64,000 nucleotides of DNA from an uncultured Actinomycetota bacterium (GCA_963726295.1 CAVSBW010000009.1:629-64628), one strand, 5' to 3'. Shown: positions 20,155-62,881, counted from the first letter of the stretch. A program made the numbers and translations. Notes: generated by a model from the letters alone, not told the origin.

Positions 20155-20358
20155 GTCGCGAGGTTCCGTCCCGGAGTCGGAGGTGGCCGCCGGACGGGTC
20201 CACATCCGGCTCGGCAGCGGCGCACGGGTGCGCCCGCCGGATGTCACCGTAGGAGCGGATGGCCTCTCCCGGCTGTCACGTGAAGGCGTGACGAGGGCCG
20301 AGGGGTCCTCGTTTCACGGGACAGCGAGTCGTACGTGACCGTGCCTAGCCTCGGCGGC

Positions 20359-20571
20359 ATGAACCCCTTCGACGACCCCGACGGCCGCTTCATCGTCCTC
20401 GTGAACGACGAGGAGCAGCACTCCCTCTGGCCCGCCCGGATGGACGTCCCCGCAGGGTGGCGAACCGTGCACGGAGAGGACGACCGGCAGTCGTGCCTCG
20501 ACTACATCGAGGCCAACTGGACCGACATCCGCCCCCTCAGCGCCCGCCGCGACGCGTCGCCGGTCGCCTGA
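20359..20571 (+). CDS. MbtH-like protein
   Basis: [34 protein letters not shown]...[14 protein letters not shown] is the canonical MbtH signature (NxExQxSxWP...PxGW). Confidence 0.9.
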
Positions 20572-28783: not shown

Positions 28784-31384
28784 GTGGGACACACCGACGT
28801 CGACGACATCTACGAGCTCTCGCCGCTGCAGCGGGGGATGCTCCTCCACACGGTGCACGACGGCTCGGCCGACATGTACCTCGGTCAGCACGTCTACGTC
28901 ATCGATGGCCCCCTGGACGCGGACCTGCTGGTCCGCGCCTGGCGGCAGGTCTTCGAGTCCCACCCCGCGCTGCGCACGTCCTTCCACTGGGAGGGGCTCG
29001 ACAAGCCCCTGCAGGTGGTCCACCGCGAGGTCACCCCTCCGTCGCGGACAGAGGATTGGTCCGGCGTGCCCGAGGACGAACAGCAGGAACGGCTCGACCG
29101 CCTCCTCGCCGAGGACCGGGCGACCGGGTTCGACCTCACCGCGCCGCCCCTCCAGCGCCTCTACCTCGTGCGGCTGAGGCCCGAGCGGCACGCCCTCGCC
29201 TGGACGCACCACCACCTGCTGCTCGACGGCTGGTCGGTCCCAGTGTTCATGAACGAGGTGATGGCCCACTACCAGGGGATCGTCACCGGTGGCCCGCGGC
29301 CGGCGCCGGCGCCGGCCTTCCGCGAGTACATCGCCTGGCTCGACCAGCAGGACATGGACGCCGCCCGCCGGTTCTGGTCCGAGACGTTGGGCGGGGTGTC
29401 GCCGCATCCGCTGCCGGGGTTGCGCGCGCTCGACCCCCGACACGCCACCGGGGAGCCCGGACGACGGTCGGTGGACATCGCGGGCCGGCTCGAGGACGGC
29501 CTGCGCGCGGCCGCGGCCCGCCACCGGGTCACGGTGGGTACCGTCCTCCACGGCGCCTGGGCCGCCGTCCTCAGCCGCCTCACCCACTCGTCAGACGTCC
29601 TCTTCGGCTGCGTCAGCTCGGGCCGCCCCGCCGACCTCCCGGATGTCGACCGAATGATCGGCATGTTCGTCAACACCCTTCCCGTCGCGGTGGACGTCCC
29701 CGGCGACGGCGACCTGGGCGAGTGGCTGCGTGACGTCCAGGCACGAGCCGCCGCGGCCCGCGAGTACGAGTTCAGCCCGCTCTCGGACGTCAAGCGATGG
29801 GCGGGCGTCCCGGGCCGGCAGCTGTTCGACAGCCTGGTCGTGTTCGCCAACTACTCCTTCGGGGTCGGCGAGGAGAGCGCCGTCGCCGGACAGCTCTCGG
29901 TCCGCTCCCAACGCACCTTCGACAAGGTGAGCGTCCCGCTGGCGCTCATCGTCAACCCGGCGCCGGTCTCGGAGCTGGAGTTGCTGTGGCACGAGGACCG
30001 CTTCGACGCCCACGTCGTCGACGACGTCCTTGCGCTCCTCCTCGCAGTACTCGGAACCCTCCCGGACGCGGACCGCACGTCGGCGCTGCTCGCTGCCGGC
30101 GACGCGCACACCGAGGCATCGTGCGCCTCCGCCCCCGCGCCCACCGGGGCCCCGCTCCCGGCGGCCCCCGTGCCGGCCGACGGCCGGGGCCGGACCTCGG
30201 CCCCGGTCCCGCCCGCGACCCCCGAGGAGGAGCACATCGCGTCAGCCTGGCGCGAGACGCTCGGCCTCGAGGAGCTCGATGTCACGGCGAACTTCTTCGA
30301 CCTCGGCGGAGACTCCTTCACCGCCGTCCGCGCGGTCGGGCGCATCGAGGGGGCGACGGTCGCCATGCTCGCCCTCCACCCGACGGTCCGCGACCTCGCC
30401 GCGGCCCTCGCGGCCGTCGGGCCCGACGAGGAGGACCGGGAGCTCGACGCCGAGATCGCCGAGCTGGAGCGCCGGCTCGCTGAGACCGGTGGCCCCGTCG
30501 GCACGCCCGCTGCGGACACCTCCGTGGAGACGCGCCTCGGCGCGACGGCGGCGCCGTCGGAGGACCGTTCCCTCCAGGAGCAGCTGACCGCGTACTACGA
30601 AGGGCCCGGACGAGAGCAGACCCTCGAGCAGGAGAGCTCGGGTCACGGGGCGCTGGAGTTCGAGCGCACCAAGGAGATCGTGCTGCGGCACCTGCCACCG
30701 GCTCCGGCCGTCGTCGCCGACATCGGCGGGGGGCCCGGGCGGTTCGCGCTGTGGCTGGCGGAGCTCGGGTACGAGGTCCTTCACCGCGAGATCGTGCCGT
30801 CCTTCGTCGACGAGGTGAACCGCGCTGCGCAGGACAAGGGGCTCGCGGTCGAGTCGGCCGTCGGTGACGCCCGGTGGCTCGACCTCGACGACGAGAGCGT
30901 CGATGCAGTCCTGCTGTTGGGGCCGCTCTACTACCTGCCCTCCGAGGAGGACCGGCTCGCCGTGCTGCGCGAGGCGCGGCGCGTCGTCCGCCCCGGGGGC
31001 CCGGTGTACGGGGCCGGCATCTCCCGCTGGGCCAGCCGCATGGACGGCATGCTGCGCGAGCGCATGTACGAGCGGGGACCCCAGATGCTCGAGCTCATCG
31101 CCGCGGTCGAGCAGACCGGCGTCCTGCCCTCCGCAGCCGCAGGCGGCTACACCGCCTTCACCCACCTCCCGCGCCAGCTGGCCACCGAGCTCGAGGCGGC
31201 AGAGCTCGAGGTCACCGACCTCGTGAGCGTCGAGGGGGCGGCGTTCCTCGTCGACGACCTCAGCGAGCGGATGGCCGACCCCCGCGCCCGCGAGGCCGTG
31301 CTCGCCGGCGCCCGCGCCCAAGAGCGGGTCCCGGAGCTGCTCGGTCTCGGTCCGCACCTGGTGGCGACCGGCGTCCGGCGATGA
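28784..31384 (+). CDS. NRPS-like C-T-methyltransferase protein without an adenylation domain
   Basis: GTG start preceded by AGGAG. C: DIYELSPLQRGMLLH, WTHHHLLLDGWS. T: FFDLGGDSFTAVRAV. Class I SAM methyltransferase: VADIGGGPGRFALWL, LLLGPLYYL. No A-domain core motifs lie between C and T. Confidence 0.85.
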   Translation: MGHTDVDDIYELSPLQRGMLLHTVHDGSADMYLGQHVYVIDGPLDADLLVRAWRQVFESHPALRTSFHWEGLDKPLQVVHREVTPPSRTEDWSGVPEDEQQERLDRLLAEDRATGFDLTAPPLQRLYLVRLRPERHALAWTHHHLLLDGWSVPVFMNEVMAHYQGIVTGGPRPAPAPAFREYIAWLDQQDMDAARRFWSETLGGVSPHPLPGLRALDPRHATGEPGRRSVDIAGRLEDGLRAAAARHRVTVGTVLHGAWAAVLSRLTHSSDVLFGCVSSGRPADLPDVDRMIGMFVNTLPVAVDVPGDGDLGEWLRDVQARAAAAREYEFSPLSDVKRWAGVPGRQLFDSLVVFANYSFGVGEESAVAGQLSVRSQRTFDKVSVPLALIVNPAPVSELELLWHEDRFDAHVVDDVLALLLAVLGTLPDADRTSALLAAGDAHTEASCASAPAPTGAPLPAAPVPADGRGRTSAPVPPATPEEEHIASAWRETLGLEELDVTANFFDLGGDSFTAVRAVGRIEGATVAMLALHPTVRDLAAALAAVGPDEEDRELDAEIAELERRLAETGGPVGTPAADTSVETRLGATAAPSEDRSLQEQLTAYYEGPGREQTLEQESSGHGALEFERTKEIVLRHLPPAPAVVADIGGGPGRFALWLAELGYEVLHREIVPSFVDEVNRAAQDKGLAVESAVGDARWLDLDDESVDAVLLLGPLYYLPSEEDRLAVLREARRVVRPGGPVYGAGISRWASRMDGMLRERMYERGPQMLELIAAVEQTGVLPSAAAGGYTAFTHLPRQLATELEAAELEVTDLVSVEGAAFLVDDLSERMADPRAREAVLAGARAQERVPELLGLGPHLVATGVRR

Positions 31385-44245: not shown

Positions 44246-44479
44246 CCCTCGGCCGTCGGAGGCTCGTGTCTGCTGTCGGCGGGACCGCGCCACACGGTGT
44301 GCGACAACCAGGTCCGCGACCCACAGTAGGAGCGGCCGCCCCCGGGCCGTCGTCACGTGAATCGGCCACGGCACGACGGAGCACGCCGACCCTGTCCGGC
44401 GTATCGGGGACAGGACCCCGCGGACACGAACCCCTTGACTTGGGGCCCTAGCTCTCGGACACCCAGCAGGGAAGACGCC

Positions 44480-45022
44480 ATGGACACGCTCACCGCTCGC
44501 CCGACCGCGCCGGCCGAACCGGACTGCATCGGTCCGATCGCCATCGCACCACGGCTCGCCCACGAGCTCGAGGTGCTCGCCGCCGGCGCGGCCGCCGACG
44601 ACCTCGCCCCGTTCGTGGTCTGCGCATCCGAGTTGTTGCTGCGCTGGTCGCGGGGCGGCACGCCGAGGTGTGCCCGCGTGATCCGGGGCCGTCACGAGGC
44701 GTTCGCACATCCCGTCGCCCCGACGGGGACGACCCCGGACCGGGCCCACCTGAGCTTCCGGGACGCTCTGGTCCACCTGGCCGCCCGGCCGGCCGAGGAG
44801 GTGGACCCGGCAGACCTGGCCGATGTCACGATCCTCATCTCCTCCGACGGTGAGCGGATGTACCTCGAGCGCACGACCACCGGGGCCGGTGGCCCCTGCC
44901 TCGGGTCTTGGGCCGACACCTACCTCGGCCTGCTCGGCACCCTCGCGGAACGTCCGGACGCCCCCCAGATCACCCGCCCCGGCACCCCAGGGGACGGCGT
45001 GACGGTGTTGGCGGCCTCGTGA
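44480..45022 (+). CDS. Small protein resembling the C-terminal part of a condensation domain (possible remnant or docking protein)
   Basis: In-frame part of ORF 44357..45022 from ATG 44480. No HHxxxD. The tail resembles the region that precedes A domains in NRPSs. GTGA overlap with the next NRPS (45019-45022). Confidence 0.35.
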   Translation: MDTLTARPTAPAEPDCIGPIAIAPRLAHELEVLAAGAAADDLAPFVVCASELLLRWSRGGTPRCARVIRGRHEAFAHPVAPTGTTPDRAHLSFRDALVHLAARPAEEVDPADLADVTILISSDGERMYLERTTTGAGGPCLGSWADTYLGLLGTLAERPDAPQITRPGTPGDGVTVLAAS

Positions 45023-48000: not shown

Positions 48001-48147
48001 GACGGCCATTTCCACTACGCCAAGGCCCTCTTCGACGAGACGACGGTGCGCGGCATGGCCGACGAGATGGTCCGCCACCTGACCCGCGTCGCGGCCGAGC
48101 ACCGTCCTCCCCCCGCCCCGTTCGACCCGACAAGGAGATCATCGTGA
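45019..48147 (+). CDS. NRPS, A-T-C* (terminal C domain has HExxxD)
   Basis: From GTG 45019 (VTATRTDPDV). A: [78 protein letters not shown]: FFSLGGDSLRAVQAI. C: LSAAQWRLLL, TVHEIAADHRS. Confidence 0.85.
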   Translation: MTATRTDPDVTVTVGSADGGPEEDRTVPGLILARARRRPRAVAVEAVDGRLTYGSLVDRAGAVARHLRALGISGGDVVAVDVERTIDLVPALLGVQLSGAAYLPLDPGHPRERVESILADTRTAVLLTDDAHRSPPGAGRTVPMSQIHPAEGTDGLGASPDAAAYVIHTSGSTGRPKGVMVGHRALTNLILSLRDLFGLPEDCVLPAVTTVSFDIAGLELFLPLTGGGTVVLGEPADARDPHRLTALVERAGASVLQATPTSWRLLLAAGWQPPPGFTVLCGGERLPSDVADDLLTDATVLWDLYGPTETTIWSAVTRYERGTTPRFHPVRGTSLVVLDGALDPVPDGSPGELYIGGPGLAEGYLGRPGATAGRFIAHPWSHGARLYRTGDLARRLPDGRTEILGRTDDQVKIRGFRVEPGEIEAALVRHPGVASAAVAAEQTDHGARLVAHVCASDPADHPDEGTLRRHLGQRLPEYMVPAEFRAVERLPTTPNGKLDRAALAAPDGRRSGAPVAAPRSPASAPPAADDKGSPGPGSEVVVARVLAEALDRDHVGVHDDFFSLGGDSLRAVQAILRLNAELGTELPVNTLFEMRTGYGLARLVDGDIVPEPTLEALPKAQPHQLSAAQWRLLLHQTHAPESVLHNRALALRVPDDVDVDAVRDAVDGLVARHGTLRTRYVVDAAGLPRPVLEEPGRTPVTLVDADPAATLADELSRPFDLAGSVPVRARVVRGPDGGSYVVLTVHEIAADHRSRALLVRQLRAAFRGHPVPDPPFDYVDYAAWQRELAGGPNTQRHLDYWRATLAGLDPADLRTDRPRPSRRVRSAGAVRFSLPREVVAGTHDLAADHDAPLAVGLLAGLVAVLDRYTTGSDVTVGVHTDGAEHPDLEQMVGAFESTVPLRVRTADADAPGQLLGRVREAAISALGHASPPLEDVVSATVGCVAPSAPGRNPLFDVSFALRAPTGLSDLDVPPCAEAAVDLHCELTELPDGGVDGHFHYAKALFDETTVRGMADEMVRHLTRVAAEHRPPPAPFDPTRRSS

Positions 48148-49637
48148 CCCCCTCGACCCAGGAGTCCCCCGGCACCGTCCGTGCCGTCCCGGTTCCCGCC
48201 GACGGCACGAGGACGTACGCCCGGCTCTGGCCGCTGCAGTACCTCTCGGGCTTCGCCATCGCCGTGGCTACCCTGGCCATCACGATCCGGGCTGACGCCT
48301 TTGCCGGCTTCTTCACCGGCTCCGCAGTGCTGCTCGCGCTCGCCCACTCACTGACGTTCTTGGCGTTCACCCCGGTGGGCGTCGTGTCCGGCCGGCTCGT
48401 CGACCGCTGGGGGCCGCGGCGGGTTCTCGTCGGCAGCAACGTCGGCTACCTCGTGATCATGGTCGTGGCGCTGCTCGCCCTCGCCGCCGCCTTCTTCCCA
48501 CCATGGCTCGCGATCGCCCTCCTGCTCGCGCGGACAGGCTCGCAGTCCGCCCAGCTGACGGCGCTCGAGTCATCGGTCCCGCGGCTGTTCTCGCGACGTG
48601 ACCTCATCCGCGCCAACGGGCCGCGGATGATCTTCACCGCGTCGGTGGCGGGCTTCGAGGGACCCATCGCCGCCGTGCTCTTCCCCGTCGCCGGGCTGCT
48701 GGCCCTCATCGGGGCGACCGTGGTGGTGCTCGTCGTCTCGCTCGTCGGTGCCGTCCGCGCCGGCATCCCCGACAACCCGGTCCCGCCCCCCGGCGCCGAG
48801 CCCGCGGACCGGACCTACCGCCCCCTGGCCGCCCACGTGCGCCGGCGGCCCGGGCTCGTCATCGTGATCGGAGCCTTCGCGCTATTCAACTTCGTCCTGG
48901 GCTTCTGCGAGCTGTCCGACCGCCAGGTCACCGCGAGCCTCGGCTCGGAGGCGACCACCAGCGCGGTCCTCGGTGTCGGCTTCCTCTTCATGATCGCCAC
49001 CACGGTCGGCATCACGCTGCGCGGCACCCCCCGGGGTCACGCCCGCTGGCTGCGGATCTGTTTCCTCGCCACCGGGGGCGCGATGGTCCTCGGGTCCCTC
49101 CGACCCAACATCTTCCTCGTGACGGTGGCCGTCGTCGTCTTCCTCGTGAGCGCGACCCTCATCATGGCAATCGTCAGCACCCTCCTCCACGCCAACACCG
49201 AGCCCAGCATCATGGGCCGGATGATGGGGGTCAAGACGACGACGATCGGGCTCTTCTACGGCAGCGGCTGCGTCGCGGCCGCCCTCTTCTCGAACACTCC
49301 CGAGGCGCTGGCAGGGGGCGAGCGGGTCAGCGGCGGGCTGCTCGGCGCCGTCGTCGGGTCGGGTGAGGCCTACGGCCGGGTCTACGCCTTCCTCACCCTC
49401 GTCCTCGGGGTCGTGGTCCTCGCACTGACCCTTGGCGTCGGCCGGCACCGCACCCTTCGCGCCCTCGACGACCCGAGCGTGGCCGAGAGCACGCTTCCCC
49501 GCCGTCCGGCGGCGGATGAGTGGCTCGAGGCCCGCGGGACGACGACGGCGGGCACGGCCCCGCGCGACGCCGGACCCGTGGAGCGCAACGCCGACCGCGC
49601 CGAGGAGCTCGCCGCTAACCGGCCTGGCGCCGGATGA
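48144..49637 (+). CDS. MFS transporter (paralogue of 32222..33634)
   Basis: GTG 48144 overlaps the NRPS stop. It has the LVDRWGPRR motif and many hydrophobic helices. Confidence 0.75.
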   Translation: MTPSTQESPGTVRAVPVPADGTRTYARLWPLQYLSGFAIAVATLAITIRADAFAGFFTGSAVLLALAHSLTFLAFTPVGVVSGRLVDRWGPRRVLVGSNVGYLVIMVVALLALAAAFFPPWLAIALLLARTGSQSAQLTALESSVPRLFSRRDLIRANGPRMIFTASVAGFEGPIAAVLFPVAGLLALIGATVVVLVVSLVGAVRAGIPDNPVPPPGAEPADRTYRPLAAHVRRRPGLVIVIGAFALFNFVLGFCELSDRQVTASLGSEATTSAVLGVGFLFMIATTVGITLRGTPRGHARWLRICFLATGGAMVLGSLRPNIFLVTVAVVVFLVSATLIMAIVSTLLHANTEPSIMGRMMGVKTTTIGLFYGSGCVAAALFSNTPEALAGGERVSGGLLGAVVGSGEAYGRVYAFLTLVLGVVVLALTLGVGRHRTLRALDDPSVAESTLPRRPAADEWLEARGTTTAGTAPRDAGPVERNADRAEELAANRPGAG

Positions 49638-50835
49638 AGTCGGCGGCGACCCGCGGGAGGTAGTCGGCCGCCTGGAACAACGTCGTGTGGTCGCCGTGCG
49701 GCTGCACCCGCAGTGACGCATGGCGCAGCCCCCCGGCCACTCGCCGGGAGCCCTCGGGATGGGCGGTCTCGTCGTCGGTGCTCGTCACGACGAGAGTCGG
49801 CTGGCTGACGGCAGCGAGGAACGGCGTCACGTCGGTGCGAGCCAGCGTGCCGTTGAGGCGGCAGTACCGGTGGAAGAGGTCGGCGGTCGTGTAGGGGTAC
49901 AGCACGAGATGGGCCAACTCGGCGGGCGTGTTCGTGAGCGTCACCTGGCAGAACGCCGCCTGCACCGAGCGGGCGGCCGCCCGGCTGGTCGCGGCGACCG
50001 TCATGAGCTCGATGAGGTCGTTCTGGAAGGTCGTCCGCGGTGACCCGCCGGCGAGCTCGTACGCCCCGTGCCAGAGGCTGAGCGAGCGGACCCGGTCCGG
50101 TCTCGCGGCCGCCGCGGCCAGGCCGATGACCGCCCCTCCGCACAGGCCGACGACGTGCGCCGACTCGGCGCCGAAGTGGTCCATCAGGCGGAACATGTCC
50201 TCGGCCTGCACCGCCGCGTCCACGCGGAGGGCATCCCCGTCGGAGCCGTAGTCCTCGACGAGGGGGGCGCCGAACATCCCCCGGGTCTCCCACGTGAGCA
50301 CCCGGTGGTCCCGGGCGAGGTAGCGCAGCCACGGCTCGGCCAGCCGAGCCGGCATCCCGCAGGCGGTCGCGAGGACCACCACCTCCGCGCCGTTCCCGGC
50401 GCCGTAGACGGTCAGCGGGAGGCCGTCACTCGCGGCGGTGCTCTGCCGCTGGAACACGGCGTCGAGCCCGGTCGACACCGCCTCGTCGGCGGCCCTGTCG
50501 ACCGCGGGGTCGTCGGGGTCGACGGGCAGCGTGTCGATCACGTCCGCGAGCGCGAGCCGGGTACTGACGACCCGCTCGAACACCCCGAGCGCGGCGGCGT
50601 CCGGATGGGGCTCGAACACTAGCCCGTCCACACCGACGCGGGACGCCACCCGGCGGAGCAGGCGGACCCACGCGCTCCCCAGGCCCGCCACCTCGGGGGG
50701 CGGGGGGCCGGTGCCGTCGGAGCGCAGGGGGACGATCCGGACCGGAGCCGTCAGCTGGGCCACCAGGGGCCCGACCGCGAGGAGGGAGTCGGCGAGCCGT
50801 CCGACGGCCGGCCGGGTGCCGGGCGGGGCCACCAC
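49615..50835 (-). CDS. SyrC/CmaE-like alpha/beta-hydrolase-fold aminoacyltransferase (Cys nucleophile)
   Basis: 406-aa ORF (GTG start). The nucleophile elbow is VVGLCGGAV (GxCxG) rather than GxSxG. It lies directly downstream of the halogenase gene, as syrC follows syrB2. Confidence 0.65.
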   Translation of the reverse strand: MVAPPGTRPAVGRLADSLLAVGPLVAQLTAPVRIVPLRSDGTGPPPPEVAGLGSAWVRLLRRVASRVGVDGLVFEPHPDAAALGVFERVVSTRLALADVIDTLPVDPDDPAVDRAADEAVSTGLDAVFQRQSTAASDGLPLTVYGAGNGAEVVVLATACGMPARLAEPWLRYLARDHRVLTWETRGMFGAPLVEDYGSDGDALRVDAAVQAEDMFRLMDHFGAESAHVVGLCGGAVIGLAAAAARPDRVRSLSLWHGAYELAGGSPRTTFQNDLIELMTVAATSRAAARSVQAAFCQVTLTNTPAELAHLVLYPYTTADLFHRYCRLNGTLARTDVTPFLAAVSQPTLVVTSTDDETAHPEGSRRVAGGLRHASLRVQPHGDHTTLFQAADYLPRVAADFIRRQAG

Positions 50836-50844
50836 GCCGGCGGC

Positions 50845-51798
50845 TCAGCCGACCGGGAACGCGTGTCCGCGCGTGGTCGTGGTGACCTTGCGGTTGTGCG
50901 TGTAGGTGTCGACGCCGGAGACGAGGACGGCCCCGTAGTCCCGGAGGCTCACCCGCCCGCCGTACTCGTCGACGTCGTCGGTGTCGGGGTAGATCTCGAC
51001 GCACGTCGGCACGTAGCGGCCCGCGTAGCCGAGCCGCATCTCCTTGTCCGGCGCGCTGTGGGGCTTGGACGCGTGCATGAGCGTCGACCAGAACATGATC
51101 GCCTGACCGGGCTTCATGACCATCGAGACCGCCTCCTCCTCCGGCGGGCGCCAGTGCGGGTCCTTCTGCAGGTCGCGGTAGTCGTACCCGTAGAAGCCGC
51201 GACTGACGCCGTCCTTGTCCTGGCCGTTGATCAGCTCCGGCTGGTAGTGCATCCCGCCGGTCTCGTCGTAGTGCATCGCGCGGTGAGAGCCGGGGATGAA
51301 CTGCAGGCAGCCGGTGTCCTCGGCCGCCTCGGTGAAGGCGGTCCAGACCGTGATCGTGCCGCCGAACTCCCTCTGACCCTCCGGCCAGACGATCTGGGGC
51401 TTGCCGGACGCGAAAGCGAAGGTGTCGGCCTGGTGCCAGTCGGTGCCCTCGTCGCCGGGGTACTTGGGGAAGAACTCGCTGCGCCAGCAGAGCACGTTGG
51501 GTCCGAGCACCGCGGCCACGCGGTCGACGATCTCGCGCCGGCAGACGTGGTCGGCTAGGAACGTCGAGTCGAGGTGCCGGTCGTAGTTGGCGATGTTCGT
51601 GTTGCCGGCGTAGGCGTCCTCGTCGTACACGGCGTGGCTGCGGTTCATGAGCCGGAGCCGCTCGCGGCGCCAGAGCCGCCGCATCTCCTCCTCCTCGTAG
51701 ACCGTGAACGGCCCGAGGTAGCCGCGTTCCTGGAACGAGGCGATCTCCTCCTCCGTCGGGGTGAAGGTCGGCCGGGCGTTGTGGGCTGTGCTCGTCAT
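50845..51798 (-). CDS. SyrB2-type non-heme Fe(II)/2-oxoglutarate halogenase (HxA motif)
   Basis: In-frame part of ORF 50845..52086 from ATG 51798 ([12 protein letters not shown]...). Blocks [55 protein letters not shown] and [11 protein letters not shown] match my recollection of P. syringae SyrB2 very closely. H122-Q-A124 was verified at nucleotide level (CAC CAG GCC, 51435..51427). Confidence 0.85.
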
Positions 51799-52058
51799 GG
51801 GGTGGCTCCTGCCGTCGCCGGTGTCGTGGGGTCGAGGTGCTGGGCCACGAGCTCGGAGAGGGCGTCGACGCTGGCCTCCTCGAGCTCGCCGACGTCGACG
51901 GCGACGTCGTAGCGCTCGCTGATCCGGGCCACGGCCCGGATGAACGCGAGCGACGTGGCGCCCTGGTCGAAGACGTCGACGGCCGGGTCGACGTCGCGAC
52001 CGAGCATCGTGGTGACGATCTCGTGGACCGTCCGCCGCACGTCGGGCGGTGCCGTCAT
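51795..52058 (-). CDS. Stand-alone peptidyl carrier protein
   Basis: 87-aa ORF with [16 protein letters not shown] (carrier-protein Ser motif). ATGA overlap with the halogenase start (51795-51798). Confidence 0.75.
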
Positions 52059-52082
52059 GATGTCGCCTCCTGTCGTGCTGGT

Positions 52083-53645
52083 TCACTGTCCGAGGGCATC
52101 GCGATCCACCTTTCCTTGCGGGGTCATCGGCATCTCCGAGACGACTTCGTAGAGAGAGGGACGAACGTGCCGTGGCAGCTGCGCCATCGCCCGCCGCTCG
52201 GCGGCGGCGGCGAGGCCCGCCGCAGACCCCTCGGCGCCGGTGGGCGGGGAGCCCCCCTCTGGGAGGAGGTACGCGACGAGCCGCACGTCGTCGGTGGCGA
52301 CCTCACGTGCGGCGACGACGGCGCGCCCGACCCCGGGCACCCGACAGAGACAGAGCTCGACCTCACCCGGCTCGATGCGGAAGCCGCGGACCTTCAACTG
52401 GTCGTCCACCCGGCCGGCATAGGTGAGCTCACCGTCGGGCAGACGCACCGCGCGGTCCCCGGTGCGGTAGACGCGCTCCTCCCCCAGCCCGGGGGGATCG
52501 GTGAGGAAGCGGGTGGCGGTCAGCTCGGGCCGGTCCAGGTAGCCGCGCGCCACTCCGCCACCGGCGACGTACACCTCGCCGGGCTCGCCGTCGGGGACCG
52601 GCGCACCGGTCGTGTCCAGTAGGTGCAGGCGCAGGTCGGGGATGGGGACGCCGATGGGGCTGCCCTCGTCGTCGAGGTCCGCGGCCGTGATCCGCCGGTA
52701 GGTGCAGTGCACCGTGGTCTCGGTGATCCCGTACATGTTCGCGAGCGCCGGCCGCCGGTCTCCGTGCCGCTCGACCCACGGCCGGAGCAGCCGGGGCTGC
52801 AGTCGTTCCCCGCCGAAGACCACGTGGCGCAGCGCCAGTCCGTCGGTCACGTGGGCAGGCTGCCGGGGAGCGAACAGAACGGTGAGGAGCTGAGCGAAGG
52901 CCGAGGGCGTCTGGTTGAGCACCGTGACGCCCTCCGCGCGCAGCAGGGCGACGAGGGCGAGCGGCGCCCGCGCCGTGGTCTCCGGCAGCACGACCAGCCT
53001 GCCGCCGTGGAGCAGCGCCCCCCACACCTCCCACACGGAGAAGTCGAAGCTCAGGGAGTGGAACTGTGCCCACACGTCGTGCTCGTCGAAGCCGAACCAG
53101 GTCGCGGTCTGCTCGAAGAGGCGCACGACGTTGCGGTGCTCGACGGTGACACCCTTCGGTCGTCCGGTCGAGCCCGAGGTGTAGATGACGTAGGCGAGGT
53201 CGGTGGCGCCGACGGCCGGATCCGGCACGGGCAGGTCGAGGGCGTCCGCGTCGTCGTCGAGGAGGACCGGGTCCGGCCCCGTGCCCGCGAGGGCCTCGGC
53301 GCTGGCGGACGTCGCGACGACGACCGGTGCGGCGCAGTCCGTGAGGAGGTACTCGACCCGCTCGGCGGGGTAGCCGGGGTCCACCGGGACGTACGCCCCA
53401 CCAGCCTTGAGGATGCCGAGCATGCCGACGACGGCGTCGAGGCCACGCGGCGCGCAGAGCGCGACGAGCACGTCCCGGCCGACGCCGCGGGCCGCCAGCC
53501 GGGCGGCCACGCGGTCGCTGCGCGCGTCGAGATCCCCGTACGTGAGGAACCCGGGGCGGGCGGTGACCGCGACCCGCTCGGGCGCGGCCCGGGCACGCGC
53601 CCGGAAGAGCGTGTGCAGACAGCTGTCGGGGAGGGCCACCGGCAT
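52083..53645 (-). CDS. Stand-alone adenylation enzyme (no T domain)
   Basis: In-frame part of ORF 52083..54050 from ATG 53645 ([14 protein letters not shown]), with a GGAGGAGAG RBS. Motifs: [89 protein letters not shown]. Confidence 0.85.
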
Positions 53646-53756
53646 CTCTCCTCCCTCTCGCCCAGTGGCTGCGACGCTACGGACGGGCAGCGGACGCCTG
53701 AAGTCACCGGTATGGGCTACTCGCCGGGCCCCCGCCACGCGCAGGACACTGCGTCC

Positions 53757-54008
53757 ATGACTGCGCCTCCCCTCGTCGACGAGCTGACCGACCGGATCCT
53801 CGCGCTGGCCCGCGAGGTGCTGCGGGCGCCTGACCTGGAGCCCGACGACGAGCTGACCCAGCAGGGGGGCACGTCTCTCTCCCTCGTAAGGATCATCGCG
53901 AGGACCCACGACTCGCTCGGCGTGGACATCGACCCCCGCGACCTCGCCGGGGGGTTCACCGCGCGGGGTCTCGCCGAGGCCGCGCAGCCCCTTCCCCCGC
54001 GGCGCTGA
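53757..54008 (+). CDS. Second stand-alone peptidyl carrier protein
   Basis: In-frame C-terminal part of ORF 52623..54008 from ATG 53757: MTAPPLVDELTDRILALAREVL...ELTQQGGTSLSLVRII... It is divergent from the A-enzyme gene. Confidence 0.7.
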   Translation: MTAPPLVDELTDRILALAREVLRAPDLEPDDELTQQGGTSLSLVRIIARTHDSLGVDIDPRDLAGGFTARGLAEAAQPLPPRR

Positions 54009-54013
54009 CGGTC

Positions 54014-55186
54014 GTGCTGTCCGTCGCCCGCGGTGCCGGCCGTGCGGCACCGCCGGACGCGGTGGGTGCCGTGGTGGAGGCGGTGCGCCAGCTCGAGGGC
54101 CTCACCGCGCAGGTCGGCCCGTTCGCCCTGCCACCGGACACCTGCACTCATGCCCCGGAGGTGGTCGGCGCGGTCTGCCGCGAGCTCGGCGTCCCGCTCA
54201 CCTTCGACGGCCACGACGGCGACCACGTCGCCATCGCCCTCGCGGCCGAGATCCGCCGGGCCGAGCACGGCCTGGCGGGCGCAGACCCGTCGGCGACGGC
54301 GGCGGCCGCCCGTCGCTGCGCGGACGAGGAGGACGCCGGCCACGAGCGGCACGTGGTCCGAACGACGGACGGGGCGGAGGTCGCCGCGGTCGCCGCCGGA
54401 CCGCGGGACGCGCCGTGCGTCCTCGTGTCCCCACCCCCAGGGCTGAGCCTGCGGCTCTCGCTGCCGTGGCTGCGCGCGCTCGGCTCCCGGTACCGCTGCG
54501 TGGTGCCCCAGAGCCGCGGCACGAGCGGTCCTCTCGGGGACCCGGGGGGGTTCGACCGGCAGGACCCCGACCTCGCCGACCAGGTGTCGGACCTGCTCGC
54601 CGTCATGGACGCGCTGTCGACCGGTCCCGTCCATGTCATGGGGGTGTGCGGTGGCTCGGGGCCGGCTCTGGCGGCGACCTCACGCCGCCCGGACCGGATC
54701 ACGTCCGTGAGCGTCTGGCACCCCGATCTCGACCTCGGCGGTGAGGCGGAGCAGACCGACCATCAGATGAACCTCCGGGCCCTCGTCGACCTCGCCGGCG
54801 AGTCTCGGGACACGGCTGACTGGCTGCGCACCAAGATCGTCAGCGGGCCGATGACCGGGGTCCCCGAGGGGATCGGACCCCTCGTCGTGCGCCCCTACGC
54901 CACGGCGGAGCTCTTCTACCGGTACGCGAGGCTCACCGCGGCGACCGTCCACTGGGACTGCCGCCCGACCGCGCGGAGGCTCGGCGTCCCGTGCCTCGTC
55001 GTCACGACCGAGGACGACGCCACCACGCATCCCTCCGGATCCCGTCGCTTGGCCGAGATCGCTCCCCGGACCGAGCTCGTCGTCGGCCGGCACGGGGACC
55101 ACCTCGACGCCTTCCGCGCCGGGGCCGAACAGGTGGGCTGCCTCGTCTCCTTCCTCGAGGACGCCGTGGCGACCCCGACGTCCTGA
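54014..55186 (+). CDS. Second SyrC/CmaE-like Cys-nucleophile alpha/beta hydrolase (putative aminoacyltransferase)
   Basis: 390-aa ORF (GTG start). The elbow is VMGVCGGSG. Its C-terminal half is collinear with 49615..50835 (ELFYRYARL / DLFHRYCRL; VVTTEDDATTHPSGSRR / VVTSTDDETAHPEGSRR). Confidence 0.65.
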   Translation: MLSVARGAGRAAPPDAVGAVVEAVRQLEGLTAQVGPFALPPDTCTHAPEVVGAVCRELGVPLTFDGHDGDHVAIALAAEIRRAEHGLAGADPSATAAAARRCADEEDAGHERHVVRTTDGAEVAAVAAGPRDAPCVLVSPPPGLSLRLSLPWLRALGSRYRCVVPQSRGTSGPLGDPGGFDRQDPDLADQVSDLLAVMDALSTGPVHVMGVCGGSGPALAATSRRPDRITSVSVWHPDLDLGGEAEQTDHQMNLRALVDLAGESRDTADWLRTKIVSGPMTGVPEGIGPLVVRPYATAELFYRYARLTAATVHWDCRPTARRLGVPCLVVTTEDDATTHPSGSRRLAEIAPRTELVVGRHGDHLDAFRAGAEQVGCLVSFLEDAVATPTS

Positions 55187-55193
55187 CGGCCGG

Positions 55194-58100
55194 TTAGGCC
55201 TGCTCGACCTCCCGCAGGAGCTCCTCGAGGTCCTCCGCGCCGACCTGCTCGGCCTGGGCGCCGACGATGCGTGGGGCGAGCTCGTCCACGGTCGGCGACT
55301 CGAAGACGTCCCGCACCGCCAGCTGCACCCCGAAGCCGTCCCGGACCCGCGTGATGAGCTGGGTCGCGAGCATCGAGAAGCCACCGAGCTCGAAGAAGCT
55401 GTCGTAGACCCCGACCCGCTCGATCTCGAGCAACTCCTCGATCGTCCCGGCCAGGCGGCGCTCCACCGGGGTGCGGGGCGCGGCGTAGCCGCCGTCCTGC
55501 GCGTCCTCGCTCCCGGGGCGCGGCAGGGCGCGCAGGTCGTACTCTCCCCAGGGCGTGCGCGGGAGCGCGTCGACAACGAGCACCTGGCGCGGCACGAGGT
55601 GGTCCGGGAGGTGGGCCTTGACGTGCCCCTGCACGATCGCCGGACCGCTCTCCGGGTCGGGGCCGGCCACGTAGCCCACCAGCATGGTGCCGCCCGAGCG
55701 GTCGGCGAGGGGAAGGACGACCGCGTCGCTCACGCCCGGGGCGTCGCGCAAGGCGGACAGCGTCTGGGTGGGGTCGTCGACCACCGCCCCTGCAGTGGCC
55801 ATCGTCAGCTCCAGCGTCCCGTCGGCGAGGAGGCGCCCGGCGTCGCCGGTCCGCTCGCCGCCGCACCAGATCTCGCCGAGCTCGCCGACGGCAGCCCTCA
55901 CCCCGGACTCCCGGCGCAGCTCCACCGCCGCGCCCGGGCGCGGGACACCCAGCGGGACTCGCAGCGGGGCGTCGGCCACGGCGAGCTCCGCGGGGGCCTC
56001 GTGGACGGCGGCCGGGCGCCCGTCGGCAGCCAGGCGGTACACGGCGACGAACCGGCAGCCCGGCGCCAGCTCGCGCACCGCCTCCACGTCGTGGGGCAGG
56101 AGGTCGCCGGCGTGGTCGACGACCACGCACCGCAGCGCAGGCAGGTGGGGGGGCGGGCGGTGGGTCGAGAGCGCCCGCAGGATCGGCGCATCGGCGTGGG
56201 CGACGCTGACCTCGTGCTCGCGGAGCCAGTCGGCGAGGGCCCCGACGTCCGTCCCGAACGCACGGTCGGGGATGAGGAGGGTCGCGCCCGCCTCGAAGGC
56301 ACTGCAGGCCGCGGACACGACATGCCCGGGCCGGGCGGTCAGGACGACGACCCGGTCCTGCGGAGCGAACCCGAGCCCTATGCCGGCACCGTCCCCGCCA
56401 CCGCCGACGGGGGGCTCGGGACGTGGCACGGGCTCGCCACGTGCTGGCAGGACCGCGCCGATGTCGACGGTCCCGTCGGCCACACCCCCGACCGGCCCGG
56501 GGTCGAGCACGGTCGTGAGGCCGAGGGGGCCGGTGAGCGCAGGGTCGTCGGTCTCGATCACGGTGCAGTCGAACCCGGCCTGGACGACGGCGCTGAGGAC
56601 CGCGACGAACCCGGCGGTCGGACGCCGGACCACGCCGATGGTGCCGGGCCCCGGCTCGGCGCGCCCGGCCAGCTCCTTGAGGACACGCCCGGCGGCCTCG
56701 GTCATCCACTGGTAGCTCCACGCCCCGCCCCCGTCGACGACGGCGACGCGGTCCTCGTCGCCGGTGTGCCCGTGGAGTGCCGCCAACGGCGCCTGGGGTG
56801 CGTCGGGGCCAGCCGGCGCGGGTGGCAGCGCGTCGCCGACGGGGGCGTCCAGCAGACGCGACCGGGGCTCCGAGGTCGCGGCCCCCACCAGGGTGCGCAG
56901 CTGGCGCAACAGCTCCCGACCGGTCTCCTCGTCGCACCGGTCCGCGGGGAAGTCGAGGGTGAGGCGGAGCACCCCGCCGGACTCCTGCGCGGTGAGGTTG
57001 AGGTCGTAGCGGCTGAACAGCGACGGCGTGTCCATCAGCTCGATCGCGAGGCCGCTGACCTCCTCGGCCTCGGGACTCCCCACGACGTTGAGCACCGCCT
57101 CGAAGAGCGGCGTGCGCCGCGGGTCGCGCTCGACGCCCAGGTCTCGAACCAGCTCGTCCATCGGCGCCTCGGTGTGGGCGTAGGCGTCGACGGCAGCGGC
57201 TCGGACCCGTTCGAGCAGCCGCGCGAACGGCGGATCGTCGGAGAGGTCCACTCGCAGGGGCAGGAGGTTGACGAAGAAGCCGATGAGCCTGTCCGTCGAG
57301 GTGGTGCTCCGCCCCGCGACGGGCACGCCCACGACGATGTCGCGCTGGCCCGACCACCGGGCGAGGAGCGTGGCGAAGGCCGCGTAGAGCACCATGAAGG
57401 AGGTCACGCCGTGGTCCCGGCAGAGGGCGTGCAGGGCGGCCGACTCCTCCAGGGGGAGCTCGGTGGACACCTGTCCGGCCTCGGCGCGCAGGGCGTCGGT
57501 CCGGCGCTGCGCGGTCGGCAGCGCCAGGGCGCGCGGGGCGCCCTCCAGGTGCTCGCGCCAGTGGCGAAGGCGCAGCTCGAGGGCCTCACCCGTGAGCCAT
57601 TCCCGCTGCCACACCGCGTAGTCGCGGTACTGCACCACGAGCGGGTCCAGGCCGGCCCGCCCGGGGTCCCCACCGGCGCGATACAGCGCCGTCAGCTCCC
57701 GGACAAAGAGGCCGATCGACCACGCGTCGGAGACGATGTGGTGCATCGTGATCCCGAGGACGTGCTCGTCGTCCGCCAGGCGGATGAGGACGCAGCGAAG
57801 GAGCGGCCCCGACTCGAGGTCGAAGGGCCGCTCGAGCTCCTCGTCGAGGATGTCGCGGGCCGCACGCTCGGCCGACGGGCCGTTCTCCTGGTCGCCGAGG
57901 TCGACCACGCGCAGGGCCCCGCTCTCCGCGGTCTCGTCGACGACCTGCAGCGGCGCCGTGTCGGAGGCGGGGAACCGGGTGCGCAGGGTCTCGTGGCGGC
58001 CGACGATGGCTCTGATGCTCTCCTGCAGCACGTCGACGTCGAGGGCTCCCCGGATCCGGCGGCGCCCGTGGACGTTGTAGATCGACCCCGGCAGGAGCTG

Positions 58101-58520
58101 GTTCTCCATCCACAGCCGCTGCTGGTCGTAGGACAGCACCTGACGGGCTCCCAGGGGTCGCGGCCCCAGCGACGGCGGGCGCACGGCGCGGCGCCCCGCG
58201 AGCGAGCGGGCCGACACCGCCGACGCGAGGCCGGCGACGGTCTGGGCCTCGACGTAGTCGGCGACCGGGATGTCGACACCCATCGTGCGGCGGATCTGGG
58301 CGACGACGTGGGGCACTTCGGCGACGTCGCCGAGGTCGAGCAGCCGATCGTGGACGGCGACCTCGTGGCACCCGAGCACCTCCCCCAGGATGCCCACCAC
58401 CGCGTCCTCGTACGGGGACCGTGGTGGCAGCGCTCGGCTCGGCTCCGCCTCACGGGTGTCGGACGCGGCAGCCGGGTGGCTCGTGGGAGGGGTCGTCTGG
58501 GGGCGCGCCATGGGTAGCAC
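55194..58520 (-). CDS. NRPS-like T*-C-A*-T (N-terminal carrier-like domain without Ser; degenerate A domain)
   Basis: 1108-aa ORF. C: LSYDQQRLWM, MHHIVSDAWS. The A-like region lacks A3, A5 and A8, and its A10 reads PRTPWGEYD. C-terminal T: FFELGGFSMLATQL. Confidence 0.8.
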   Translation of the reverse strand: MLPMARPQTTPPTSHPAAASDTREAEPSRALPPRSPYEDAVVGILGEVLGCHEVAVHDRLLDLGDVAEVPHVVAQIRRTMGVDIPVADYVEAQTVAGLASAVSARSLAGRRAVRPPSLGPRPLGARQVLSYDQQRLWMENQLLPGSIYNVHGRRRIRGALDVDVLQESIRAIVGRHETLRTRFPASDTAPLQVVDETAESGALRVVDLGDQENGPSAERAARDILDEELERPFDLESGPLLRCVLIRLADDEHVLGITMHHIVSDAWSIGLFVRELTALYRAGGDPGRAGLDPLVVQYRDYAVWQREWLTGEALELRLRHWREHLEGAPRALALPTAQRRTDALRAEAGQVSTELPLEESAALHALCRDHGVTSFMVLYAAFATLLARWSGQRDIVVGVPVAGRSTTSTDRLIGFFVNLLPLRVDLSDDPPFARLLERVRAAAVDAYAHTEAPMDELVRDLGVERDPRRTPLFEAVLNVVGSPEAEEVSGLAIELMDTPSLFSRYDLNLTAQESGGVLRLTLDFPADRCDEETGRELLRQLRTLVGAATSEPRSRLLDAPVGDALPPAPAGPDAPQAPLAALHGHTGDEDRVAVVDGGGAWSYQWMTEAAGRVLKELAGRAEPGPGTIGVVRRPTAGFVAVLSAVVQAGFDCTVIETDDPALTGPLGLTTVLDPGPVGGVADGTVDIGAVLPARGEPVPRPEPPVGGGGDGAGIGLGFAPQDRVVVLTARPGHVVSAACSAFEAGATLLIPDRAFGTDVGALADWLREHEVSVAHADAPILRALSTHRPPPHLPALRCVVVDHAGDLLPHDVEAVRELAPGCRFVAVYRLAADGRPAAVHEAPAELAVADAPLRVPLGVPRPGAAVELRRESGVRAAVGELGEIWCGGERTGDAGRLLADGTLELTMATAGAVVDDPTQTLSALRDAPGVSDAVVLPLADRSGGTMLVGYVAGPDPESGPAIVQGHVKAHLPDHLVPRQVLVVDALPRTPWGEYDLRALPRPGSEDAQDGGYAAPRTPVERRLAGTIEELLEIERVGVYDSFFELGGFSMLATQLITRVRDGFGVQLAVRDVFESPTVDELAPRIVGAQAEQVGAEDLEELLREVEQA

Positions 58521-60265: not shown

Positions 60266-60329
60266 GGTCGGCGCCGGCCCTCGGGCCGCCGTCCGGCTCC
60301 CCCGTTCCCGCCGGGTCGCTGGCCACACG

Positions 60330-62659: not shown

Positions 62660-62881
62660 CGCGACCTACGGTCGGCGTACCTGCCACCGCCGTCCGGACC
62701 GACGGCCGAGAGCGACCGCACGCGACGCACCCTCCGGTGCCCCGGGCCACGCCACGGACCCGGACGAGGCCCCGGTGACGCCGGACCGGTCCCCCTTAGC
62801 GGGGACGGTCGCCCCGGGACGTCCCGCCATAGTGTCGCGGCACGCCCTCCCCGACCCCGTGGCCCTCGATCGCCCGGAAGG

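What the first reader, a model, noticed from the sequence alone, without database searches (positions are those of the whole stretch)
49615..55186. SyrB1/SyrB2/SyrC-like on-carrier halogenation and shuttle cassette, with duplicated carrier proteins and duplicated Cys-transferases
Seen: the minus-strand operon is free A enzyme (53645-52083), PCP (52058-51795), HxA halogenase (51798-50845, ATGA-coupled to the PCP) and a GxCxG hydrolase (50835-49615). Divergent from it are a second PCP (53757-54008) and a second GxCxG hydrolase (54014-55186). Established: in syringomycin, SyrB1 loads Thr, SyrB2 chlorinates it on the carrier, and the Cys-hydrolase SyrC transfers it to an A-less module. CmaA/B/D/E work similarly. 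Inference: a chlorinated or chlorination-derived residue is made in trans and delivered to the assembly line. Two transferases and two PCPs suggest two delivery routes.
Basis: partly seen in the sequence, partly recalled or inferred. Interest (0 to 1): 0.75.

Follow-up and report, generated by a model that had tools for sequence, protein, structure and literature searches.

The report
Threonine chlorination and two-shuttle cassette
This is a real but uncharacterised relative of the syringomycin SyrB1/SyrB2/SyrC system: one enzyme loads threonine onto small carrier proteins, a second chlorinates it there, and two related cysteine transferases probably hand the residues to peptide-synthetase modules whose own loading domains are dead.

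Summary

- **Free A enzyme:** its 10-residue specificity code is DFWNVGMVHK (threonine).
- **Halogenase:** 64% identical to SyrB2, with the HxA motif aligned to SyrB2 His116/Ala118.
- **Hydrolase 1:** a full-length SyrC homologue (35% identity). Its Cys aligns with SyrC Cys224, and it groups with other halogenase-adjacent SyrC proteins.
- **Hydrolase 2 and PCP2:** these are not recent copies. Each belongs to its own conserved clade. At least 16 contigs from several actinomycete genera carry both a hydrolase-1-type and a hydrolase-2-type protein.
  - In some relatives a second halogenase sits between PCP2 and hydrolase 2. The pair therefore looks like an old paralogous cassette that has no halogenase of its own in this window.
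- **Acceptors:** the adjacent NRPS (55194-58520) carries a dead A domain with no A3, A8 or A10 lysine. A C-T-MT module (28784-31384) has no A domain at all.

Two delivery routes are plausible. Which carrier feeds which module is unresolved. No CmaC-type cyclase is present. The product is unknown and no characterised cluster matched. I rate this a new variant of a known kind, of moderate interest.

The parts
52083..53645 (-). Stand-alone adenylation enzyme (SyrB1 A-domain equivalent, without a fused T domain), predicted to be Thr-specific
   Evidence: AMP-binding E 1.2e-94 and AMP-binding_C. TIGR01733 444 bits. Stachelhaus code DFWNVGMVHK. 46% identity to the SyrB1 A domain. Orthologues read DFWNIGMVHK.
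51795..52058 (-). PCP1, the carrier on which Thr is chlorinated; translationally coupled (ATGA) to the halogenase
   Evidence: PP-binding. Ser in DQGATSL. ATGA overlap. PCP1 orthologue clade 61-74% identical.
50845..51798 (-). SyrB2-type Fe(II)/2-oxoglutarate halogenase (clade 'HalI')
   Evidence: 457 bits to SyrB2 2FCT and 417 bits to CytC3. HQA aligned to SyrB2 H116/A118. TIGR01762 446 bits against a cut-off of 226. Second His conserved.
49615..50835 (-). Hydrolase 1: SyrC-orthologue-type Cys aminoacyltransferase
   Evidence: 35% identity to SyrC over residues 10-403, E 2e-66, with GLCGG Cys aligned to SyrC C224. Falls in the halogenase-adjacent SyrC clade. The same position after the halogenase is seen in nearly all of the 80 loci examined.
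53646..53756 (.). 111-bp divergent intergenic region between the A gene and PCP2 (presumed shared promoter region)
   Evidence: Sequence read. The sigma-70 consensus scan found nothing, which is uninformative for high-GC actinomycete DNA.
53757..54008 (+). PCP2, second stand-alone carrier and an old paralogue of PCP1
   Evidence: PP-binding E 3.5e-11. Ser in QQGGTSL. PCP2 orthologue clade 44-66% identical and 32% identical to PCP1. Lies immediately upstream of hydrolase-2-type genes in 14 of the 16 loci with upstream sequence (not detected in L095).
54014..55186 (+). Hydrolase 2: SyrC-like Cys transferase of a separate, uncharacterised clade
   Evidence: 34% identity to SyrC, E 6e-49. 38% identity to hydrolase 1. 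Own clade of about 115 clusters at 48% identity or more. C212, D335 and H363 invariant. Full-length profile match to the SyrC/hydrolase-1 clade, E 1.6e-64. AF2 pLDDT 93.
55194..58520 (-). NRPS subunit T(deg)-C-A(dead)-T: probable acceptor module for trans-loaded (chloro)threonine
   Evidence: Pfam C, partial A and two PP-binding stretches. N-terminal T has Ala in place of the Ser. C domain reads HHIVSDA. The A domain lacks A3, D235, A5, A8 and the A10 Lys (GEYD). C-terminal T reads LGGFS. Adjacent to hydrolase 2 in the window, L003, L090, L096, L098, L105 and L128.
28784..31384 (+). C-T-MT module with no A domain: second candidate acceptor
   Evidence: Pfam Condensation, PP-binding and methyltransferase, with no AMP-binding. 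HHHLLLDGWS and FFDLGGDS are intact.
20284..20571 (+). MbtH-like protein, a possible activator of the stand-alone A enzyme (coordinates are stop-to-stop)
   Evidence: PF03621 E 3e-28. Its role here is inferred only.

Best explanation
The region encodes two paralogous trans-loading routes that share one threonine-activating enzyme.

Route 1 is the minus-strand operon and works like SyrB1/SyrB2/SyrC.
- The free A enzyme adenylates L-Thr and loads it on PCP1.
- The Fe/2OG halogenase chlorinates Thr-S-PCP1, by analogy at C4.
- Hydrolase 1 takes the (chloro)threonyl group onto its active-site Cys and passes it to the T domain of an NRPS module that cannot load itself.

Route 2 is PCP2 plus hydrolase 2. 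It is an old paralogue of the carrier-halogenase-transferase unit. It still has its own halogenase in some relatives but has none in this window. It most likely serves a second A-less position with threonine that is not chlorinated on PCP2.

The acceptors are the dead-A module of 55194-58520 and/or the C-T-MT module of 28784-31384.

What is shown: gene content, family membership, active-site residues, Thr code, dead A domain, and conserved synteny and co-occurrence. What is inferred: loading of both carriers by the one A enzyme, the site of chlorination, the direction of each transfer, and which T domain each transferase serves.
For: - The A-(T)-halogenase-SyrC-like order recurs in nearly all of 80 loci from Pseudomonas, Streptomyces, Sorangium, Pseudonocardiaceae and others. 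A split A/PCP version occurs in S. mirabilis.
- Hydrolase 1 clusters with Pseudomonas SyrC and other halogenase-adjacent enzymes. Hydrolase 2 forms a sister clade. Both share the whole two-domain architecture and a Cys/Asp/His set.
- PCP1 and PCP2 are closer to each other (G[AG]TSL motif) than to the in-line T domains.
- The same six-gene layout occurs in L003, in L088 (Micromonospora sp. NRRL B-16802) and in L090.
- At least 16 contigs carry both transferase types, judged from matching contig lengths.
- In L087, L094, L104 and L107 the order is PCP2-halogenase(HalII, HxA)-hydrolase 2.
- The dead A domain is conserved in orthologues.
- One metagenomic protein (P0197) fuses hydrolase 2 to a T domain. 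That T is 55% identical to the C-terminal T of 55194-58520 and shares its unusual LGGFS motif.
- Published precedent: CysK A3 lacks the A10 lysine and is loaded by CysH through the SyrC-like shuttle CysB (PMC7966384).
Against: - No biochemistry has been done and the product is unknown.
- In relatives (L087, L094, L098, L101, L127, L128) PCP2 directly follows, and is translationally coupled to, an NRPS that ends in C-A(dead) with no T domain. That makes PCP2 look like an acceptor carrier, not a donor. The window itself holds no such NRPS.
- Nothing shows that the free A enzyme loads PCP2.
- Two other free-standing loaders (A-T at 33379-36081 and A-T-TE at 41630-45046) could supply route 2.
- Carrier isoelectric points do not discriminate donors from acceptors.
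Confidence: 0.7

Rival explanations
1. Relay model, following CmaA/CmaE/CmaD logic. PCP2 is the detached T domain of an A-less or dead-A elongation module. Hydrolase 2 loads it, taking threonyl or chlorothreonyl from PCP1. Hydrolase 1 loads the T domain of 55194-58520. There is then one donor, two acceptors and two acceptor-specific transferases.
For: - In six relatives the gene before PCP2 is an NRPS ending C-A(dead) with no T, overlapping or abutting PCP2.
- In the cma operon a carrier gene is likewise followed directly by the transferase gene.
- In L126 the order is colinear: A-PCP1-Hal-hydrolase 1-(A-T-C)-434 aa-(C-Adead-T)-(A-T)-NRPS, with PCP2-hydrolase 2 following in the overlapping L101.
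Against: - PCP2 resembles PCP1-type tailoring carriers, not in-line T domains.
- In type II relatives a halogenase lies between PCP2 and hydrolase 2, as in a donor cassette.
- The P0197 fusion links hydrolase 2 to a T domain of the 55194-58520 type, not to PCP2.
- The window has no C-A(dead) NRPS lacking a T.
Confidence: 0.3
2. PCP2 and hydrolase 2 handle a different amino acid. A residue activated by the free-standing A-T protein 33379-36081, possibly beta-hydroxylated by the adjacent P450 at 35967-37331, is shuttled by hydrolase 2. Only hydrolase 1 handles (chloro)threonine.
For: - An A-T didomain (code DVWFFGCVTK), a P450 and a type II thioesterase lie together at 33379-38050.
- Homologues of this A-T protein recur in the cluster family (L098).
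- Two donors and two shuttles would parallel WS9326A, as summarised in PMC10956176.
Against: - PCP2-hydrolase 2 lies next to the Thr-specific A gene in all four six-gene loci.
- The A-T protein has its own T and a neighbouring thioesterase that could release its product.
- In type II loci PCP2 is paired with a SyrB2-like halogenase.
Confidence: 0.15
3. The cassette makes a free chlorinated amino acid, like Thr1-4 for 4-chlorothreonine or CytC1-4. The hydrolase would act as a releasing thioesterase, not a shuttle. (Thr1-4 and CytC1-4 are cited from my own knowledge.)
For: The stand-alone A, PCP and halogenase followed by an alpha/beta hydrolase have the same layout as those pathways. The halogenase scores 417 bits to CytC3.
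Against: - Both hydrolases carry a Cys nucleophile and group with SyrC, not with Ser thioesterases.
- Separate type II thioesterases exist elsewhere in the window (37295-38050; 20694-21317).
- The cluster holds A-less and dead-A modules that need trans loading.
Confidence: 0.05

Closest known systems
SyrB1/SyrB2/SyrC of syringomycin biosynthesis (Pseudomonas syringae)
   Same: - Thr-specific A.
- Carrier-tethered chlorination by an HxA Fe/2OG halogenase (64% identity).
- A Cys transferase of the same two-domain family (35% identity, Cys224 aligned), encoded directly after the halogenase.
- Delivery to a module that cannot load itself.
   Different: - A and T are separate proteins here, whereas SyrB1 is an A-T fusion.
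- The likely acceptor keeps a full-length but dead A domain; SyrE's last module, by my recollection, simply lacks one.
- A second paralogous carrier-transferase pair is present.
- The host is a high-GC actinomycete-type organism and the product is unknown.
CmaA/CmaD/CmaE/CmaB of coronamic acid biosynthesis
   Same: Two carriers serve one A domain. A carrier gene is immediately followed by an alpha/beta-hydrolase Cys transferase gene (cmaD-cmaE). The halogenase is SyrB2-family (53% identity).
   Different: - CmaE is 282 aa and lacks the N-terminal domain. It is only 25-27% identical over about 90-180 residues.
- PCP2 shows no detectable similarity to CmaD.
- The window has no CmaC cyclase homologue.
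- The A code is Thr, not allo-Ile.
CysH/CysB/CysK-module 3 of cystobactamid biosynthesis (PMC7966384)
   Same: An in-line A domain inactivated by loss of the A10 lysine. Its T domain is primed in trans from a stand-alone loader through a SyrC/CmaE-like shuttle.
   Different: CysB is only about 20% identical to SyrC according to that paper. The substrate is tailored Asn. There is no halogenase and only one shuttle.
WS5/WS20 shuttles of WS9326A biosynthesis and the LgnA TEII domain (as summarised in PMC10956176)
   Same: A nonlinear NRPS with A-less modules. In WS9326A two separate shuttling enzymes work in one cluster.
   Different: Those shuttles are type II thioesterase-like enzymes, not the SyrC family. 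No halogenation is involved.

Membership tests
SyrB2-type carrier-dependent Fe(II)/2OG halogenase | Membership of the curated 'chlorinating enzyme' family and close similarity to solved SyrB2/CytC3 | tested here: met
   TIGR01762 445.8 bits (cut-off 226.3). SyrB2 457 bits and CytC3 417.5 bits.
SyrB2-type carrier-dependent Fe(II)/2OG halogenase | 2-His iron site with Ala or Gly in place of the carboxylate (HxA), plus the distal His | tested here: met
   WHQADTF aligned to SyrB2 H116/A118. STLMHAS aligned to the SyrB2 distal-His segment.
SyrB2-type carrier-dependent Fe(II)/2OG halogenase | Chlorination of a carrier-tethered aminoacyl substrate | not testable with these tools
   Context only: the gene overlaps the PCP1 stop codon.
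SyrC-type aminoacyltransferase | Full-length homology to authentic SyrC, including the roughly 110-130-residue N-terminal domain | tested here: met
   Hydrolase 1: residues 10-403 against SyrC 7-396, E 2e-66. Hydrolase 2: BLASTP covers only 117-385, but the profile-profile alignment covers 14-397 against 7-404 at probability 100%.
SyrC-type aminoacyltransferase | Catalytic Cys in GxCxG at the nucleophile elbow (SyrC Cys224), with conserved Asp and His | tested here: met
   GLCGG and GVCGG aligned to SyrC GICGG. C212, D335 and H363 are invariant in the hydrolase-2 clade. C232, D355 and H383 are invariant in the hydrolase-1/SyrC set.
SyrC-type aminoacyltransferase | Encoded directly after the halogenase of an A-T-halogenase cassette | tested here: met
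   Met for hydrolase 1. Not met for hydrolase 2 in this window, but met in its relatives L087, L094, L104 and L107.
SyrC-type aminoacyltransferase | Thioester-to-thioester transfer between carrier domains without net hydrolysis | not testable with these tools
No solved structure of the family exists for comparison.
SyrB1-type threonine loader | Thr-specific 10-residue code | tested here: met
   DFWNVGMVHK against SyrB1 DFWSVGMVHK.
SyrB1-type threonine loader | A-T didomain in one polypeptide | tested here: not met
   The A enzyme (520 aa) ends before a separate 87-aa PCP gene. The same split occurs in L003, L086, L088 and L126.
CmaD/CmaE carrier-transferase pair | Sequence membership of the CmaE and CmaD lineages | tested here: not met
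   Hydrolase 2 against CmaE: 27% over 88 residues, E 1e-5. Hydrolase 1 against CmaE: 25% over 178 residues. PCP2 against CmaD: no alignment. CmaE is the outgroup in the tree.
Coronamic-acid-type cryptic chlorination (cyclopropane formation) | A CmaC-like cyclase next to the halogenase | tested here: not met
   tblastn of CmaC against the whole window found no hit at E <= 0.01.
Trans-loaded dead-A NRPS module (CysK-M3 type) | A domain present but lacking catalytic motifs, notably the A10 lysine, followed by an intact T | tested here: met
   A3, D235, A5 and A8 are absent and A10 reads GEYD instead of GKxD. The T domain reads LGGFS. This is conserved in six orthologues.

The most novel reading that the evidence does not exclude
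One threonine-activating enzyme feeds two paralogous carrier proteins so that the cell can keep chlorinated and unchlorinated threonine apart. Each pool is then delivered by its own dedicated SyrC-family transferase to a different dead-A module of a nonlinear assembly line. The uncharacterised hydrolase-2 clade would be a new, acceptor-specific class of carrier-to-carrier shuttle. A further possibility is that it moves peptidyl chains from a detached carrier.
Probability: 0.3. Interest if true: 0.6.

Novelty: new variant of a known kind. Interest (0 to 1): 0.4.

Why it matters
SyrC-family shuttles are rare. Only 96 clusters at 50% identity reach E <= 1e-30 among 1.84 billion representatives. 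Only SyrC, CmaE and CysB have been studied.

A cluster family with two paralogous shuttles, two paralogous carriers and dead-A acceptor modules would be a natural system for learning how these enzymes choose donor and acceptor carriers. That knowledge would help in inserting tailored or halogenated residues at chosen positions of engineered NRPSs.

It also marks an orphan family of actinomycete peptides that probably contain chlorothreonine. Culturable carriers of the family include Micromonospora sp. NRRL B-16802 and Nocardia sp. BMG111209.

Tried and rejected
- **Source and product:** exact-sequence look-ups gave only unnamed metagenome records. Four literature searches found no characterised cluster with this layout.
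- **Solved structures:** there is no SyrC-family entry by sequence. The AF2 model of hydrolase 2 matched only generic alpha/beta hydrolases by fold, TMq about 0.5.
- **NRPS 14360-19468 as the counterpart of the relatives' C-A-T-C-A(dead) subunit:** rejected. Identity is only 33-34%, which is generic NRPS similarity.
- **Carrier isoelectric points as a guide to transfer direction:** all lie between 4.05 and 4.87, so they are uninformative.
- **Promoter and terminator consensus scans of 49400-55400:** nothing found.
- **CmaE-type membership of hydrolase 2, suggested by the carrier-hydrolase gene order:** rejected on sequence.
- **Recent duplication of the two pairs:** rejected. Identities are 38% and 32%, and each gene sits in a separate orthologous clade.

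Full report
**Setting.** The window is 72-75% G+C throughout. GC3-based gene calling shows a large NRPS cluster between about 12.5 kb and the right end. Exact-protein look-ups trace it to an unnamed 76.9-kb metagenome contig.

**Observation.**
- Pfam gives Abhydrolase_1 for 49615-50835(-) and PhyH for 50845-51798(-).
- It gives PP-binding for 51795-52058(-), and AMP-binding plus AMP-binding_C with no T domain for 52083-53645(-).
- It gives PP-binding for 53757-54008(+) and Abhydrolase_1 for 54014-55186(+).
- The PCP1 stop and the halogenase start overlap as ATGA. PCP1 and the A gene are preceded by GGAGG-like sites.
- Both carriers keep the Ser (DQGATSL; QQGGTSL).

**Halogenase.**
- It scores 457 bits against SyrB2 (2FCT) and 417 bits against CytC3.
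- WHQADTF aligns to SyrB2 His116-Gln-Ala118.
- It exceeds the curated cut-off of NCBIfam TIGR01762 'chlorinating enzyme' (446 against 226 bits).
- It is 64% identical to SyrB2 and 53% to CmaB.

**A enzyme.** I aligned it to GrsA-PheA, whose sequence I recalled from memory and checked by recovering DAWTIAAICK. The code is DFWNVGMVHK, the canonical Thr code. SyrB1 from Pseudomonas gives DFWSVGMVHK and the orthologues give DFWNIGMVHK. The enzyme is 46% identical to the SyrB1 A domain.

**Hydrolases against authentic SyrC and CmaE.**
- A genome scan with the SyrB2 sequence returned 80 loci.
- In Pseudomonas sp. RGM 3321, whose SyrB2 is 100% identical, the next gene is SyrC.
- Hydrolase 1 aligns to SyrC end to end at 35% identity, E 2e-66. 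GLCGG lies on SyrC GICGG (Cys224).
- Hydrolase 2 aligns over 117-385 at 34% identity, E 6e-49.
- A profile-profile comparison of the two clades covers the whole length, including the N-terminal helical domain (probability 100%, E 1.6e-64).
- The two window enzymes are 38% identical to each other.
- CmaE was taken from a P. syringae COR plasmid. It is only 25-27% identical to hydrolase 1, hydrolase 2 and SyrC alike, over the C-terminal part. PCP2 shows no similarity to CmaD.
- In a neighbour-joining tree rooted on CmaE, hydrolase 1 sits with Pseudomonas SyrC and the other halogenase-adjacent enzymes, and hydrolase 2 forms a separate sister clade.
- tblastn of SyrC finds exactly these two genes in the window, and CmaC finds nothing.

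**How common is the first cassette?** The order A-(T)-halogenase-SyrC-like occurs in nearly all of the 80 loci. These come from Pseudomonas, Streptomyces, Sorangium, Pseudonocardiaceae, Micromonospora and others. The split A/PCP form also occurs on a Streptomyces mirabilis plasmid, whose halogenase is 80% identical. The minus-strand operon is therefore an ordinary new member of a known kind.

**The second pair.**
- Hydrolase 2 has its own family: 117 hits, nearly all at 48-72% identity. They come from Streptosporangium, Sphaerisporangium, Phytohabitans, Micromonospora, Streptomyces, Nocardia and Pseudonocardia.
- Cys212, Asp335 and His363 are invariant in that family.
- Sixteen contig lengths are shared between the hydrolase-1 and hydrolase-2 hit lists. 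The two types therefore usually occur in the same cluster.
- PCP1 and PCP2 likewise form separate orthologous groups. They resemble each other (G[AG]TSL motif, 32-38% identity) more than they resemble in-line T domains.

Three layouts of the second pair are seen among relatives.
- **Six-gene layout, as in the window:** L003, L088 (Micromonospora sp. NRRL B-16802) and L090.
- **NRPS(...C-Adead) | PCP2 | a second HxA halogenase clade (HalII) | hydrolase 2:** L087, L094, L104, L107.
- **The same without a halogenase:** L098, L101, L127, L128. In at least one such cluster the A-PCP1-halogenase-hydrolase 1 cassette lies elsewhere in the cluster (L126/L101).

I read this as an old duplication of a carrier-halogenase-transferase unit. 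The window's second copy has no halogenase.

**Acceptors.** The gene convergent with hydrolase 2, 55194-58520, is T-C-A-T on paper.
- Its N-terminal T has Ala at the Ser position. The Ser is retained in L090, L098 and L105.
- Its A domain lacks A3, Asp235, A5 and A8, and A10 reads GEYD. This is conserved in orthologues.
- Its C-terminal T (LGGFS) is intact.
- This matches the published CysK module 3 case, in which an A domain without the A10 lysine is loaded through the SyrC-like CysB (PMC7966384).
- A second module with no A domain at all, C-T-MT at 28784-31384, has intact C and T motifs.
- One metagenomic protein, P0197, fuses hydrolase 2 to a T domain that is 55% identical to the C-terminal T of 55194-58520. 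This links hydrolase 2 functionally to that kind of T.

**What remains open.** In the relatives, PCP2 follows, and often overlaps, an NRPS that ends C-A(dead) with no T. This makes PCP2 look like the module's own carrier and supports a CmaE/CmaD-like relay. The window contains no such NRPS, although about 13 kb of the source contig lie outside it. Whether the A enzyme loads PCP2, and which transferase serves which T, cannot be decided from sequence.

**Structure.** The AF2 model of hydrolase 2 is confident (pLDDT 93.3, pTM 0.90). It is a helical N-terminal domain followed by an alpha/beta-hydrolase core. The PDB holds only generic hydrolase neighbours.

**Verdict.** 'Two routes' is plausible and now has comparative backing, but the second pair is an old paralogue, not a duplicate, and its partners are unresolved. 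No cyclase for a halogen-derived ring is present. I rate it a new variant of a known kind, interest 0.4.

Noticed in passing
window 40750-41634 (-), with 40024-40716 (-), ~39090-40027 (-), 38047-39090 (-) and 41630-~44300 (-): A second SyrB2/CytC3-family enzyme (TIGR01762 310 bits; CytC3 247 bits) has Val where halogenases have Ala or Gly. It reads WHQVETYAIGE, and this is conserved in three orthologues. All reported radical halogenases are 2His-1Ala/Gly (PMC13489965). It lies in a conserved block with an A(Pro-like code DVQFVAHLAK)-T-TE protein, a heme-oxygenase-like diiron protein with weak BesC similarity, a fatty-acid-desaturase-like protein and a PhzF-like protein. The function is unknown.
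   Followed up: partly
window 20954-28774 (+): The two Ser modules (code DVWHFSLIDK) of this C-A-T-C-A-T-TE synthetase have A-T regions that are 100% identical over 1740 nt, 3276 nt apart. The C domains are only 86% identical. This could be recent gene conversion or duplication, or an assembly collapse.
   Followed up: partly
window 55194-58520 (-), residues ~35-110: The N-terminal carrier-like domain has Ala in place of the phosphopantetheine Ser in the window and in L003 (LGDVA, LGDLA). It keeps Ser in L090, L098 and L105 (LGDVS) and is canonical in L095. The domain seems to be losing its function within this lineage.
   Followed up: partly
window 61505-62665 (-), 60150-61511 (+), ~62800-64000 (+): A VioC/MppO-type arginine or enduracididine beta-hydroxylase (TIGR03946 471 bits) is flanked by two class I/II aminotransferase-like genes. 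This suggests a hydroxy-arginine, capreomycidine or enduracididine-type residue in the product. The same trio occurs in L087 and L127.
   Followed up: no
window 20694-21317 (+): A CmaT-like type II thioesterase (32% identity, E 9e-22) lies between the MbtH-like gene and the large NRPS. The NRPS therefore probably starts near 21450, not at 20954.
   Followed up: no
window 44908-48147 (+) and 14360-19468 (-): The terminal C domain of the A(Gly)-T-C protein reads VHEIAADH instead of HHxxxDG. The C-terminal C-like domain of 14360-19468 reads AHGLVAD. Both may be non-canonical or inactive condensation domains.
   Followed up: no
P0197 (metagenome protein, 465 aa), related to window 54014-55186: A natural fusion of a hydrolase-2-type transferase with a C-terminal T domain that carries the unusual LGGFS motif of the 55194-58520 module.
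   Followed up: partly
L088 (Micromonospora sp. NRRL B-16802, LGEB01000075.1): This culturable strain carries the same six-gene cassette plus a second HxA halogenase directly after a C-A(dead) NRPS. It is a practical organism for experiments.
   Followed up: partly
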